A stretch of 64,000 bases of DNA from the human T2T-CHM13v2.0 reference genome, Homo sapiens (GCA_009914755.4 CP068257.2:27680001-27744000), one strand, 5' to 3'. Counted from the first letter of the stretch, positions 9,879 through 25,822 are shown. Notes: generated by a model from the letters alone, not told the origin. Numbers and translations are program-made.

Positions 9879-10160
9879 GCCGGGCCCAGTGGCTCATGCC
9901 TGTAATCCCAGCACTTTGGGAGGGCGAGGCAGGCAGATCACCTGAGGTCAGGAGTTCGAGACCAGCCTGGCCAACATGGTGAAACCACATCTCTACTAAA
10001 AATACAAAAATTAGCCAGGCGTGGTGGCGGGCACCTGTAATCCCAGCTACTCGGGAGACTGAGGCAGGAGAATCACTTGCAGTGAGCCAAGATCGTGCCG
10101 CTGCACTCTAGCCTGGGTGACAGAGAGAGACTCTGCCTCAAAAAAAAAAAAAAAAAAAAA
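9879..10160 (+). mobile_element. Alu (AluS-like) with a 20-nt poly-A tail, intron 2
   Basis: Contains gccgggcccagtggctcatgcctgtaatcccagcactttgggagg...gtgacagagagagactctgcctc(a)20. Confidence 0.95.
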
Positions 10161-10464
10161 GGAACTGAACTTGCCAACACAAAGATCCCTTGTGTTGTCC
10201 TTTTATAACCACAGACATCTCCTGCCTACACTCCATGCCCTCATCCCCTTGCCCCCTTCCTCCGTGCCTAATCCATGGCAACCACTAATCTTTCTTCCTT
10301 TTCTAAAGTTTTGTCATTCTAAAAATGTTATATAAATGGAATTATGCAGTATATTACCTCTTAGGATTGATGTTGTTTGACTTAGCTGAGATTATCCAGC
10401 TTGTGTGTATCAGCAATTTATTCCTTTTTATTGCTGAGTAATATTCTGTAGTATGGATGTACCT

Positions 10465-10491
10465 TGTGTGTGTGTGTGTGTGTGTGTGTGT
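10465..10491. repeat. (TG)n microsatellite
   Basis: gtgtgtgtgtgtgtgtgtgtgtgtgt. Confidence 0.95.
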
Positions 10492-10837
10492 AGCTTTTTA
10501 CCTATTGAAGGAAATCAGGCTAATTCTGGTTTTTGGCTATCACAAATAAAATTGCTGTAAACATTTGTGTACTGGTTTTTGTGTGAACATAAATTTGCAT
10601 TTCTCTGGGATAAAAGACCAGGAGTGCAGTTGCTGGGTTATATGGTAGTTGCATGTTTAGTTTTATAAGAAAGTTTTTTTCAAAGTGTCTGTACCATTTT
10701 ACATTCCCACTAGCAATATGTGAGTGATTTAGTTTATCGGCATTCTCATTAGCATTTGATGGTATCACTGCTTTTTATTGGAGCCTTTAAAAAGCCTAAA
10801 CATGGTTTAGCATGTTTATGTTTTTAAGAAGATCACA

Positions 10838-11131
10838 GCCGGGCGCGGTGGCTCACGCCTGTAATCCCAGCACTTTGGGAGGCCTAGGCGAGTGGATCAC
10901 GAGGTCAGGAAATAGAGACCATCCTGGCTAACGTGGTGAAACCCCCGTCTCTACTAAAAATACAGAAAAATTAGCCGGGCATGGTGGCAGGCACCTGTAG
11001 TCCCAGCTGCTCGGGAGGCTGAGGCAGGAGAATGGCGTGAACCCGAGAGGCGGAGCTTGCAGTGAGCCGAGATCGCGCCACTGCACTCCAGCCTGGGCGA
11101 CAGAGCGAGACTCCGTCTTAGAAAAAAAAAA
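10838..11131 (+). mobile_element. Alu (AluY-like), intron 2
   Basis: Contains gccgggcgcggtggctcacgcctgtaatcccagcactttgggaggc...gagaccatcctggctaacgtggtgaaaccc... and a poly-A tail. Confidence 0.95.
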
Positions 11132-11948
11132 ATCACAAATATTAATATTATCTTGACCACTCTTATAAGAACTCAGTGGTTTCAAATTAATTTTGTGCTT
11201 TTAATCCAGGATGATGCCTTCTGTGTACTGGAGTTGGTTCCATTTGCCTCTCACTTTAAGAGGCAGGTTTAATGTAAATGTGCAAGTTTCTACTTAAAAG
11301 TTTTGTTACTTCGAGTCCATGAATTTTTGCTGAAACAGTACCGAGGCATGATTTTTATAACTTCTCTTAGATCACTTTTAAAAATCTGAATCTTTAAAAC
11401 TTTTACTGTTAGGAATTTTTGACAGTAAAGTTAATAGTTACCAGTTAGTATGCATTTACCATGGATCAAGACTTTGTAACTGCTTTACAAATACTGTTTT
11501 ATATCCTTTAAAATTCTGCTTTTGTAGCTTGTAGCAGTTGGAGTTGTTTGGAATACAGTGGCCATGTGGAGCTGGGCTAGCAGTAGACTCACTATGTGTG
11601 GCAGGTAGTGTTCATCCTGCTCTAATTCATAGATGATTTTTTTTTTCACTATCATGGGAAAATTGTGGTAATGTCTTACATCTTTAACTTATGTGAGTAA
11701 ACCATAATTCATGTGCAATTAAGAGAGGACTCTATAAAATAGTGTGTGGTCCCTGTGAAAAGCATGCTTTTCCAGGATCTTTTTCTTTTACATTTCTTAG
11801 AAGAATATGTTTTCTTCAAATTAAAGTACATATTTTATAATTATCACAAATAAGTTACATATCTCTCTATTCCTCTTCTACTTATTTTGTTTTTATGTAC
11901 TAGACAGCTTTCAAATGATGTGTTTGTTTTTATTTTGTGTATCAACAG

Positions 11949-22861: not shown

Positions 22862-23454
22862 TTTTCTTGTTTTCTCTTTTCCCTCCCTCCCACTCTTTGG
22901 AATCACAGTGGACTCATGGATTAATTTTTTCTGATTCAATTTGTTAGGATAAGTAATAGTCATTATTCTTTTTGATGTTGACATTTTTCAAATTTGGCCT
23001 GGGAGAGCCCGTTCAAGCCAGCTCCTGTCCTGTTGACATAACCATCTAGCACTTGCCATGGTCTCACTTTTTAACCTCTATTGTTTCAAGATTTGGAATC
23101 ACCCATTTCTTTAAAACTCCTGGTTTCTTCTAGCAGTTATATTGGACTTTGGAAAGCCTACCTGCTGCTGGAGTATTATTCCTTCTGGGCCTTTTTCAGT
23201 GGACAGAGCTAGGAAATATATGCATCTGTGTATAAAATAAAGTTCATTATATCATGAATTCATATATATCAGGCTTCAGTAAATGAAAGTAAAAAGTACA
23301 TTAGAAATCCTGAGTTTATGTAGTATTTCCAGTCCAAATTTAGCAGTATAGAGCTTTTGTCTTCACTTCTGTGTTTATGTTTAATCTCTCATCATTTACA
23401 GGAAAAATTTTGGCTCCAATTACATTAGTGTATTGTTTCCTTTATAATATACAG

Positions 23455-23975
23455 TAAGTTCTCACTTAACATGAAATGATGGATAATGAAACCAGTTTTT
23501 TTCCTCATCAACTTTATAATGAAAGGATGTTGTAAAAATGAGAACACTTGGACACAGGGTGGGGAACATCACACACCGGGGCCTGTCGTCGGGTGGGGGA
23601 GTGGGGAGGGATAGCATTAGGAGATATACCTAATGTGCCGGGTGCGGTGGCTCAGGAGTTCGAGGCTAGCCTGGCCAACATGGTGGTGCAAACCTGTAAT
23701 CCCAGCTACTCGGGAGGCTGAGGCAGGAGAATCGCTTGAACCTGGGAGGTGGAGGTTGCGGTGAGCTGAGATCATGCCATTGCACTCCAGCCTGGGCTAC
23801 AAGAGCGAAACTCCGTCTTAAAACAAAAACAAAAACAAAAACAAAAACAAAAAAAACGAGTTAATGGGTGCAGCACACTAACATGGCACATGTATACATA
23901 TGTAACAAACCTGCACGTTGTGCACATGTACCCTAGAACTTAAAGTATAATATAAATAAACAATAAAATAAAAAA
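23455..23975 (+). mobile_element. L1 (LINE-1) extreme 3' end fragment, interrupted by an Alu insertion
   Basis: Matches the L1 3'UTR terminus: atgagaacacttggacacagggtggggaacatcacacaccggggcctgtcgtcgggtggggga...gggatagcattaggagatatacctaatgt | Alu | gacgagttaatgggtgcagcacactaacatggcacatgtatacatatgtaacaaacctgcacgttgtgcacatgtaccctagaacttaaagtataatataaataaa. Confidence 0.85.
23637..23856 (+). mobile_element. Alu (internally deleted, ~220 bp) inserted into the L1 3' end, with a (CAAAAA)n tail
   Basis: Contains gccgggtgcggtggctcagg...cccagctactcgggaggctgaggcaggagaatcgcttgaacc...ctccgtcttaaaa(caaaaa)n, flanked on both sides by contiguous L1 consensus. Confidence 0.85.
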
Positions 23976-24274
23976 GAAAGGATGTGGAACAAAATGTTTA
24001 TTGAGGACCTGGTGTGCGTTGTTTCTCTTAAAGTCAGTTTCCAAAAACCTGTCGATGATTTTAAGTGAGGGCACACTGTATAAAAAGTAAGAAAATTAGA
24101 CAATCAGTATTACTATTAACAGTAAACAAATTGAGCAGAATTTGAGATTTATTTGCTTTTTTATGCTTAAATATTTCCCAGTGTGAAGCTTTAAAGTTAT
24201 TTGAAATATTTGTGTTACCAATTTGGCATACAATTAATTTTTTTTTCTATTTATATTACTGGGATTTACTCTAC

Positions 24275-24558
24275 ATTTTTTGAGACAGGGTTTCACTCTG
24301 TCACCCAGGCTAGAGTGCAGTGGCACAGTCATGACTCACTGCAGCCTTGACTTCTTGGGATCAAGCAAATCCTCTCATATCAGCCTTCTGAGTAGCCAGG
24401 ACTACAGGTGCGCACCACCATGCCCGGGTAATTTTTTTGTGAAGATGAGGTTTCGCTGTGTTGCCCAGGCTCCTCTCAAAACTCCTGGGCTCAATCGATC
24501 CTCCTGCCTTGGCCTCCCAAAGTGCTGAGATTTTAGGCATGAGCCACCATGCCTGGCC
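24275..24558 (-). mobile_element. Alu (antisense, older AluJ/S-like)
   Basis: Contains tttttgagacagggtttcactctgtcacccaggctagagtgcagtggcacag...gcatgagccaccatgcctggcc. Confidence 0.9.
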
Positions 24559-25519
24559 TACATTTTTAATTTGTTTTATTTTGAATGTAAAACGTTTATA
24601 TGGTTCAAACATTAAAACTATATTTTAAAAAATATATACTCCAAATCTTGATCTCATCTTCTCCTTATACCCTATTCATAGCTACTTCCTATAGGTAACC
24701 ATTTTCATTAGTTTCTGGATTTTTTTTTCCCTGTGTTTCTTTTCTAAAAATGTGTTAACATTTTATGTCTACTCTTATTATCCATCCTGCTGCATGGAAG
24801 TATTTTATATACATTTTTCTGTACTTTTTAAACTTAAGAATTGATTTATAGGAAATATTTTTTCTTAGTTCAGAGAGGTTGTCATTCGTTTTCCAGCTCC
24901 ATAGTACTCAGTAGTGACTGTAATACAGTTCAAACCAGTCTTCTGTGGGTGGACAGTTGGGATCCTGCAGTGAATAACTGTATACTGTTTCATGTTTAAG
25001 GAGCTGTGTCTCTAGGACACATTCCTAGAAGTGGGATTGTTGGATCAAGGGTAAATACATACATAATTTTATTAGATATTAACAGATTCCCCTCCTTAGG
25101 AATTGTCATATTTGGCCTTCCAGCAGCAGTATATGTGTGTGTGTCTGTCCACACCCTCAGTCAAGATTTGTTGTCAGCTTTTGGGTTTTTTCCAGTCTGA
25201 TAGTGAGATACCATGATATCTCGTGGTAGCTTTTATTTTTATCTTATGAGTGAAAATGAGCATTTTTGCTTATATTTCTCAGTGCCATTTGCAGATTTCT
25301 CTGAACTGCCGTTCAGAGGTTTTACTTACTAAGGAACTATTAGTGACCATTTTCTAACAGTGAGTACTCTTTACCCTATCATAAAATTGTCACTTGTACT
25401 TTTGGTGCCAAATTCTTCTATATCTTTATTGGGTGAGTTATATTTATGATCTTTAAAAAAATTATATTTGAATAAATATTGTGCACTAGCTATTCAAAAT
25501 AAGGATTTAGATGCAAAGG

Positions 25520-25822
25520 TTTTTTTTTTTTTTTTTTTGAGACAGAGTCTTGCTCTGTCACCCAGGCTGGAGTGCAGCGGCACAATCTCGGCTCACCGCA
25601 ACCTCCGTCTCCCAGGCTCAAGTGATTCCCCTGCCTCAGCCTGCCCTTTTAGCTAGGTTTACAGGTGTGTGCCACCATGCCCAGCTAATTTTTTTGTATT
25701 TTTATTAGAGACAGGGTTTCACCATGTTGGCTAAGCTGGTCTCGAACTCCTGACCTCACATGACCCGCCCACCTCAGCCTCCCAAAGTGCTGGGATTACA
25801 GGCGTGAGCCACTGTGCCCAGC
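25520..25822 (-). mobile_element. Alu (antisense)
   Basis: Poly-T(20) then gagacagagtcttgctctgtcacccaggctggagtgcagcgg...gtgagccactgtgcccagcc. Confidence 0.95.

What the first reader, a model, noticed from the sequence alone, without database searches (positions are those of the whole stretch)
9879..25822. Exons 3+4 (1335+207 = 1542 nt) are bracketed by oppositely oriented Alus, an architecture that favours exon 3-4 back-splicing (circRNA)
All four Alus upstream of exon 4 are in sense orientation (9879, 10838 in intron 2; 13435, 14916 in intron 3). All six Alus in intron 4 are antisense (16057, 17790, 19975, 22550, 24275, 25520). Inverted Alu pairs across flanking introns are the best-established cis driver of back-splicing. 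Intron 2 sense Alus can pair with intron 4 antisense Alus and loop out exons 3-4. BACH1-derived circRNAs have been reported in the literature. I cannot verify here which exons they contain, but a 1542-nt exon 3-4 circle is what this geometry predicts. The strict strand segregation of Alus on the two sides of exon 4 is itself notable.
Basis: partly seen in the sequence, partly recalled or inferred. Interest (0 to 1): 0.55.

Follow-up and report, generated by a model that had tools for sequence, protein, structure and literature searches.

The report
Known BACH1 exon 3-4 circular RNA
The two human BACH1 exons really are flanked by oppositely oriented Alu repeats, and the 1542-nt circular RNA this predicts exists, but it is the already published circBACH1 (hsa_circ_0061395), so the finding is correct and ordinary.

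Summary
The window is human BACH1. The spliced CDS gives a 736-aa protein that matches a full-length PDB BACH1 chain. Exon 3 (11949-13283, 1335 nt) and exon 4 (15377-15583, 207 nt) have canonical AG/GT splice sites. It is also not statistically compelling: runs test p=0.0095 without the fragment and 0.11 with it.

The predicted exon 4 to exon 3 back-splice is published as hsa_circ_0061395/circBACH1 (chr21:30698379-30702014, 1542 nt). A published junction primer equals exon 4 end | exon 3 start of the window exactly.

In silico, the nearest flanking pair is the strongest of all Alu duplexes: AluY 10838-11141 with antisense Alu 16043-16364. Introns 2 and 3 contain no internal inverted repeats. 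This fits the standard inverted-Alu model. No paper found in the library tests Alu dependence at BACH1.

A second validated circle, exons 2-4 (hsa_circ_0001181), has a mouse counterpart and uses the same donor. It has no complementary partner in the 7.1 kb of intron 1 within the window. Alus are therefore probably facilitators, not the sole determinant. Verdict: already known, low interest.

The parts
7124..7417 (+). BACH1 exon 2 (294 nt, start codon at 7184). Its acceptor is the alternative back-splice acceptor of the exon 2-4 circle hsa_circ_0001181.
   Evidence: AG|GTTGATG acceptor and GAG|gtgaga donor. The published siRNA GAAGCTG|GTTGATGATAATT equals exon 4 end | exon 2 start.
9879..10165 (+). 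Sense AluS-like element in intron 2.
   Evidence: 85% identity to the AluSx consensus over positions 2-282. Inverted matches to all six antisense Alus of intron 4. Duplex energies -372 to -456 kcal/mol.
10838..11141 (+). Sense AluY in intron 2, 807 nt upstream of the exon 3 acceptor. It is the youngest Alu here and the best pairing partner.
   Evidence: 94% identity to the AluY consensus. Strongest duplexes: -539 with 16043 and -521 with 19971. 177-nt ungapped arm, 86% complementary (I1). 162 bp to Alu 16043 in the MFE fold.
11949..13283 (+). BACH1 exon 3 (1335 nt). Its acceptor at 11949 is the back-splice acceptor of hsa_circ_0061395.
   Evidence: Splice sites. ORF. Match to the junction primer.
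13435..13715 (+). Sense AluS-like element in intron 3.
   Evidence: Weaker inverted matches to the intron 4 Alus.
14912..15197 (+). Sense AluJ-like element in intron 3, 179 nt upstream of exon 4.
   Evidence: 82% identity to AluJo. Duplex with 16043 only -379, longest helix 26 bp. 0 bp with 16043 in the MFE fold.
15377..15583 (+). BACH1 exon 4 (207 nt). The donor at 15583 (CTG|gtaagt) is the back-splice donor shared by the exon 3-4 and exon 2-4 circles.
   Evidence: Literature.
16043..16364 (-). First antisense Alu of intron 4, 459 nt downstream of the exon 4 donor.
17789..18115 (-). Antisense Alu, intron 4.
19971..20287 (-). Antisense Alu, intron 4. Gives the best blastn inverted match to AluY 10838 (83.6% over 305 nt).
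22541..22873 (-). Antisense Alu, intron 4.
23652..23857 (+). It is the only within-intron competitor for the antisense Alus.
   Evidence: two + hits, 23652-23685 and 23681-23818. (intron 4 x intron 4 inverted matches). Duplex energies -220 to -293.
24275..24578 (-). Antisense AluJ-like element, intron 4.
25520..25827 (-). Antisense AluS-like element, intron 4.
28287..28721 (+). Coding part of BACH1 exon 5. It defines the 3' end of intron 4 (15584-28286).
   Evidence: Acceptor cacag|CAAAGT. The spliced CDS gives 736 aa with the stop codon ending at 28721.

Best explanation
This is the human BACH1 gene. Exons 3 and 4 are back-spliced, with the exon 4 donor at 15583 joined to the exon 3 acceptor at 11949. 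The product is the known 1542-nt circular RNA circBACH1 (hsa_circ_0061395).

The most likely cis mechanism is the standard one: inverted-repeat Alu pairing in the pre-mRNA. Sense Alus in intron 2, above all AluY 10838-11141, base-pair with antisense Alus in intron 4, above all 16043-16364. This loops out exons 3-4 and brings the downstream donor next to the upstream acceptor.

Introns 2 and 3 contain only sense Alus, so they have no internal inverted pairs that would favour linear splicing. Intron 4 has only one half-length sense competitor.

Shown: the Alus, their orientation and complementarity, the exon coordinates, and the existence and junction of the circle. Inferred: that the Alu pairing is what drives the back-splice. 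The Alus probably facilitate the circle and are not its sole determinant, because an exon 2-4 circle uses the same donor without any visible complementary partner in the window.
For: Gene identity. The spliced CDS gives 736 aa and matches PDB 29hh_G 'Transcription regulator protein BACH1' over residues 1-736. Pfam finds BTB and bZIP_Maf.

Circle.
- PMC7788978 states that exons 3 and 4 are joined head to tail.
- Its junction primer matches exon 4 end | exon 3 start exactly.
- A length of 1542 nt is listed in PMC10332600 and PMC8810173.
- PMC6144802 reports circ-BACH1 (exon 3-4) confirmed by RT-PCR in monocytes.

Geometry.
- All inverted matches among the introns derive from Alus.
- They are confined to intron 2 x intron 4, intron 3 x intron 4, and intron 4 against the sense fragment.

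RNAduplex energies in kcal/mol.
- Intron 2 AluY with intron 4 Alus: -385 to -539.
- Intron 3 Alus with intron 4 Alus: -333 to -407.
- Sense fragment with intron 4 Alus: -220 to -293.
- Shuffled or same-orientation controls: about -160.
- Best pair, 10838 x 16043: 275 bp with a longest helix of 78 bp.

MFE fold of 9800-16450. Alu 16043 pairs only with the intron 2 Alus (162 + 116 bp) and forms 0 bp with the intron 3 Alus.

Independent tool. The repeat finder gives a 177-nt ungapped arm at 86% complementarity.
Against: - No experiment on these Alus was found. The 42 papers that mention both circBACH1 and Alu are, judging by the 15 titles listed, reviews and were not read. A search for BACH1 plus IRAlu returned one unrelated review.
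- The exon 2-4 circle hsa_circ_0001181 uses the same donor and is validated by RT-PCR and RNase R (PMC5387670). The 7.1 kb of intron 1 in the window has no Alu and no complementarity to intron 4 beyond chance.
- A mouse Circ-Bach1 exists, and mouse has no Alus.
- The intron 3 Alus lie closer to intron 4, so co-transcriptional folding could favour them. MFE predictions at 6.6 kb ignore kinetics and bound proteins.
- The strand segregation is not significant once the sense fragment is counted.
Confidence: 0.62

Rival explanations
1. The Alus are bystanders. BACH1 circularisation at the exon 4 donor is set by features other than Alu pairing: long flanking introns (intron 4 is 12.7 kb), strong splice sites, RNA-binding proteins, or re-splicing of an exon-skipping lariat. 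Alus are simply common in such introns.
For: - The exon 2-4 circle shares the donor, yet the intron 1 sequence in the window has no Alu and no complementarity to intron 4.
- A mouse Circ-Bach1 was validated (PMC5387670).
- Acceptor choice depends on cell type: exon 3-4 in monocytes, exon 2-4 in HSC/MPP (PMC6144802). A fixed DNA architecture alone cannot explain this.
- The authors of that paper suggest exon skipping as a source.
- Exons 3+4 total 1542 nt, which is 514 codons, and both flanking introns are in phase 0. Skipping them would keep the reading frame.
Against: - The nearest flanking Alu pair is also the strongest duplex in the region, with a 78-bp uninterrupted helix.
- Circle types that would need intron 2 x intron 3 pairing (exon 3 alone) have no complementary sequences. 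None turned up in the limited text searches, though the exon content of hsa_circ_0061394 and hsa_circ_0061397 is unknown.
- Established minigene work on other genes (Liang & Wilusz 2014; Zhang et al. 2014; cited from my own knowledge) shows that such pairs are sufficient.
- Intron 1 upstream of the window could hold the missing sense Alus.
Confidence: 0.28
2. The intron 3 sense Alus, which lie closest to intron 4, capture the antisense Alus. The geometry would then mainly produce a 207-nt exon 4-only circle, not the exon 3-4 circle.
For: - Alu 14912-15197 is only 179 nt from the exon 4 acceptor and 846 nt from Alu 16043.
- There are 12 main intron 3 x intron 4 inverted Alu pairs (15 inverted blastn matches).
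Against: - These duplexes are the weakest cross-intron pairs: -333 to -407 kcal/mol, 69-77% identity, and a longest helix of 26 bp for 14912 x 16043.
- The MFE fold gives 0 bp between the intron 3 Alus and 16043.
- Searching the coordinates 30701808 / 30702014 returned only the exon 3-4 and exon 2-4 circles.
Confidence: 0.04
3. QKI bound to the flanking introns drives production of hsa_circ_0061395.
For: PMC10332600 infers this from the overlap between genes whose alternative splicing correlates with QKI in TCGA SpliceSeq and the host genes of circRNAs upregulated in a GEO dataset.
Against: - The evidence is purely correlative, and that paper mislabels the host genes in places.
- No ACUAAY QKI core motif lies in the last 1 kb of intron 2, the first 1 kb of intron 4, the last 1 kb of intron 1 or anywhere in intron 3. 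The window average is 0.38 per kb.
Confidence: 0.04

Closest known systems
circBACH1 / hsa_circ_0061395 (circBank hsa_circBACH1_012), chr21:30698379-30702014 (hg19)
   Same: It is identical to the predicted circle. The genomic span is 3635 nt, equal to window 11949-15583. The spliced length is 1542 nt. The published junction primer matches exon 4 end | exon 3 start.
   Different: Nothing differs. This is the predicted object itself. The papers found in the library treat its function (miRNA sponge, HuR binding) and not its biogenesis.
hsa_circ_0001181, the BACH1 exon 2-4 circle (chr21:30693541-30702014), and mouse Circ-Bach1
   Same: It uses the same exon 4 back-splice donor at 15583. It was validated by RT-PCR and RNase R, and its siRNA matches exon 4 end | exon 2 start.
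   Different: - The acceptor is exon 2 (7124), giving 1836 nt.
- It contains the native start codon.
- The intron 2 and intron 3 Alus lie inside the precursor loop.
- No complementary partner is visible in the 7.1 kb upstream.
Inverted-repeat Alu (intronic complementary sequence) driven exon circularisation, as shown for ZKSCAN1, HIPK3, POLR2A and others (Jeck 2013; Zhang 2014; Liang & Wilusz 2014; cited from my own knowledge)
   Same: - Full-length inverted Alus lie within 0.5-0.8 kb of the back-spliced sites.
- Cross-intron pairing is stronger than within-intron pairing.
- Several alternative pairs could give alternative circles.
   Different: Dependence on the repeats has not been tested for BACH1. 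One of the two major circles lacks a visible partner in the window.

Membership tests
Exonic circRNA made by back-splicing | A downstream 5' splice site is joined to an upstream 3' splice site at canonical exon boundaries. | tested here: met
   The published junction oligos equal exon 4 end | exon 3 start and exon 4 end | exon 2 start of the window. They are not contiguous in the genome. AG/GT sites are present.
Exonic circRNA made by back-splicing | Circularity: RNase R resistance and amplification with divergent primers. | not testable with these tools
   Literature only.
- The exon 2-4 circle is RT-PCR and RNase R positive (PMC5387670).
- The exon 3-4 circle was confirmed by RT-PCR (PMC6144802).
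- The primary circBACH1 paper (J Cell Physiol 2020) is not held.
IRAlu / complementary-sequence-mediated circRNA | Inverted complementary repeats are present in both flanking introns. | tested here: met
   There are 12 main intron 2 x intron 4 Alu pairs (14 inverted blastn matches), 71-84% identity over about 280-316 nt. A 177-nt ungapped arm is 86% complementary.
IRAlu / complementary-sequence-mediated circRNA | Pairing across the flanking introns outcompetes pairing within a single intron. | tested here: met
   - Introns 2 and 3 contain no inverted pairs.
- Intron 4 has only the half-length sense fragment, at -220 to -293 kcal/mol, against -372 to -539 for cross-intron pairs.
- The MFE fold pairs Alu 16043 with the intron 2 Alus.
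- All of this is in silico.
IRAlu / complementary-sequence-mediated circRNA | Circle production depends on the repeats: deleting or mutating them abolishes it, and compensatory changes restore it. | not testable with these tools
   No such experiment was found in the library.
IRAlu / complementary-sequence-mediated circRNA | In vivo evidence for the duplex: A-to-I editing of the paired Alus, and sensitivity to ADAR1 or DHX9. | not tested
   No editing or knockdown data can be reached with these tools.
Alu SINE | A dimeric element of about 280-300 nt, similar to the Alu consensus, with an A-rich tail. | tested here: met
   - Identity to AluY/Sx/Jo consensus sequences is 80-94% over essentially their full length.
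- The left-arm/right-arm internal repeat and the poly-A tails are visible (D1 and D4).
- Rfam at gathering thresholds reports nothing, because no model in the library calls Alus at that threshold.

The most novel reading that the evidence does not exclude
The switch in Alu orientation at exon 4 could be what fixes 15583 as the common back-splice donor of every major BACH1 circle. Competition between the intron 2 sense Alus and an unseen partner in upstream intron 1 for the antisense block of intron 4 would then set the cell-type-specific choice between the exon 3-4 circle (monocytes) and the exon 2-4 circle (HSC/MPP). Factors that act on Alu duplexes, such as ADAR1, DHX9 or NF90, could tune that choice. 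BACH1 would then be a natural model of regulated alternative back-splicing.
Probability: 0.15. Interest if true: 0.35.

Novelty: already known. Interest (0 to 1): 0.12.

Why it matters
It matters little beyond confirmation. circBACH1 (exons 3-4) is a much-cited circRNA: 127 papers in the library mention it. The inverted-Alu model is textbook. The useful points are modest:

- The sequence gives a concrete, testable pair for its biogenesis: AluY 10838-11141 with Alu 16043-16364.
- The coexisting exon 2-4 circle shows that the Alus in the window cannot be the whole story.
- At least one published 'circBACH1' qPCR assay does not target the junction.

Tried and rejected
- Rfam gathering scan of the window: no hits, so Alus were called by blastn instead.
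- Non-Alu complementarity between the in-window part of intron 1 and intron 4, as an explanation for the exon 2-4 circle: the best inverted matches are 12-18 nt, no better than the same-orientation control.
- QKI motif scan around the back-splice sites: none found.
- Exon 4-only circle from intron 3 x intron 4 pairing: these are the weakest duplexes, they do not form in the MFE fold, and the coordinate search found no such circle.
- Strand segregation as a non-random signal: p=0.0095 only if the sense fragment is ignored, 0.11 with it, and 0.33 for the whole window.
- Search for an experimental link between BACH1 circles and Alus (circBACH1 + Alu; BACH1 + IRAlu): the listed hits look like reviews from their titles (not read), plus one unrelated review.
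- Exon content of other BACH1 circRNAs (hsa_circ_0061394, hsa_circ_0061397): both exist, but their exon content could not be found and no supplements are held.
- Primary papers (Liu 2020 J Cell Physiol; Wu 2022 Cell Cycle, PMC9519000): not held.
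Full report
**Identity of the locus.** Splicing 7184-7417, 11949-13283, 15377-15583 and 28287-28721 gives a 736-aa ORF. It matches PDB chain 29hh_G, 'Transcription regulator protein BACH1', over residues 1-736 (1657 bits). It carries BTB and bZIP_Maf domains. Published human BACH1 primers map exactly to exon 2.

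Coordinates follow from the circBase entry for hsa_circ_0061395: window position = hg19 position - 30,686,431 for exons 3-4 (inference).

**Check of the observation.**
- Exon 3 is 11949-13283 (1335 nt; ...caacag|GTGACA and TGTGAG|gtgagc).
- Exon 4 is 15377-15583 (207 nt...ttctag|GTAAAA and AAGCTG|gtaagt).
It also finds the six antisense Alus at 16073, 17810, 20013, 22573, 24282 and 25539.
'Strict' strand segregation is therefore wrong in detail.
- A runs test gives p=0.0095 for the ten full-length elements, p=0.11 with the fragment, and p=0.33 for all 23 Alu hits in the window. The pattern was picked post hoc.
- Closely spaced inverted Alus are known to be depleted (my own knowledge). That depletion by itself favours runs of same-strand elements.

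The bracketing is real. The segregation is not a signal in its own right.

**Is the predicted circle real?** Yes, and it is already published.
- The hg19 span of 3635 nt equals 15583-11949+1.
- The reverse complement of that paper's reverse qPCR primer is TTGAGAAGCTG|GTGACAGTTAAAG. This is the last 11 nt of exon 4 followed by the first 13 nt of exon 3. It does not occur contiguously in the window.
- A length of 1542 nt is tabulated in PMC10332600 (circBank hsa_circBACH1_012) and in PMC8810173.
- Nicolet et al. (PMC6144802) confirmed circ-BACH1 (exon 3-4) by RT-PCR. It is preferentially expressed in monocytes.
- 127 papers in the library mention circBACH1.

**Anatomy relevant to mechanism.** Comparing every intron against every other on opposite strands shows that all inverted matches derive from Alus. 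They occur only as follows:
- intron 2 x intron 4: 12 main pairs, up to 83.6% identity over 305 nt;
- intron 3 x intron 4: 12 main pairs, weaker, 69-77% identity for the full-length pairs;
- intron 4 against its own sense fragment.

There are no inverted matches within intron 2, within intron 3, between introns 2 and 3, or involving the in-window part of intron 1.

RNAduplex energies in kcal/mol rank as follows:

| Pairing | Energy |
|---|---|
| AluY 10838 with intron 4 Alus | -385 to -539 |
| Alu 9879 with intron 4 Alus | -372 to -456 |
| Intron 3 Alus with intron 4 Alus | -333 to -407 |
| Sense fragment with intron 4 Alus | -220 to -293 |
| Shuffled or same-orientation controls | about -160 |

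- The strongest duplex is also the pair nearest the back-spliced sites. AluY 10838-11141 lies 807 nt upstream of the acceptor. Alu 16043-16364 lies 459 nt downstream of the donor.
- That duplex has 275 bp and a longest uninterrupted helix of 78 bp.
- The repeat finder independently reports a 177-nt ungapped arm at 86% complementarity.
- An MFE fold of the 6.65-kb segment 9800-16450 pairs Alu 16043 only with the two intron 2 Alus (162 + 116 bp). It forms no pairs with the closer intron 3 Alus.

This fits the competition model of complementary-sequence-mediated circularisation and favours an exon 3-4 loop over an exon 4 loop. The caveat is that these are equilibrium predictions that ignore kinetics and bound proteins.

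**What the geometry does not explain.**
- A second circle, hsa_circ_0001181 (chr21:30693541-30702014), joins the same exon 4 donor to the exon 2 acceptor.
- Legnini et al. selected it for high expression in human myoblasts and validated it by RT-PCR and RNase R. They list a mouse Circ-Bach1 counterpart (PMC5387670).
- It is raised in DM1 muscle and in PBMCs from HCC patients.
- Its siRNA, GAAGCTG|GTTGATGATAATT, equals exon 4 end | exon 2 start at 7124.
- Nicolet et al. find it enriched in HSC/MPP, against monocytes for the exon 3-4 form.
- Window 1-9878 has no Alu at all. Intron 1 within the window shows no complementarity to intron 4 beyond 12-18-nt chance matches.

Either the partner lies further upstream in intron 1, outside the window, or pairing is not required. 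Cell-type-specific acceptor choice and the mouse counterpart both point to trans factors and features other than Alus. I therefore treat the Alus as probable facilitators (confidence about 0.6), not as proven drivers.

QKI, proposed on correlative grounds in PMC10332600, has no ACUAAY motif within 1 kb of any relevant splice site or anywhere in intron 3. No paper found in the library tests Alu dependence at BACH1.

**Comparison with the known, and verdict.** The object is hsa_circ_0061395 itself. The proposed mechanism is the standard IRAlu model. The membership features that can be tested in sequence are met: canonical junction, inverted repeats in both flanking introns, and cross-intron pairing stronger than within-intron pairing. 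The functional features, repeat dependence and editing, cannot be tested here. Novelty is 'already known' and interest is low.

Noticed in passing
window 13338-13358 (+) and 13812-13831 (-): The 'circBACH1' qPCR primers printed in PMC10351125 (Breast Cancer Res 2023) map to intron 3. They form a convergent pair with a 494-bp amplicon across the sense Alu 13435-13715. They do not span the back-splice junction and would detect the circle only if intron 3 were retained.
   Followed up: partly
window 11949-13283 + 15377-15583 (circle of 1542 nt): The exon 3-4 circle is 514 codons long and has no stop codon in the BACH1 reading frame. It contains six in-frame Met codons. In principle it is an endless ORF. 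No evidence of translation was sought.
   Followed up: partly
window 7124-7417 + exons 3-4 (circle of 1836 nt): The exon 2-4 circle contains the native ATG at 7184. Reading across the back-splice junction gives a 596-aa ORF: BACH1 residues 1-592 followed by VDDN and a stop codon. That product would keep the BTB domain and the bZIP basic region but lose most of the leucine zipper (domain positions).
   Followed up: partly
window 7418-11948 (intron 2): The span from the exon 2 acceptor to the exon 4 donor is 8460 nt in the window but 8473 nt in the hg19 circRNA coordinates. The exon 3-4 span is identical at 3635 nt. This implies a 13-nt indel in intron 2 relative to hg19, possibly in an Alu tail or a simple repeat. 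It was not located.
   Followed up: no
window 1-9878: The first 9.9 kb (the end of intron 1, exon 2 and the start of intron 2) has no Alu, against about 0.42 per kb in the rest of the window. The Poisson probability of none is about 0.015. This may reflect constraint around exon 2, or chance.
   Followed up: no
literature, BACH1 locus: Further BACH1 circRNA identifiers exist. hsa_circ_0061394 is stably expressed in epidermal stem cells and has more than 10 AGO2 sites. hsa_circ_0061397 has a listed length of 3750. Their exon composition could not be determined here. [quoted passage not shown]
   Followed up: partly
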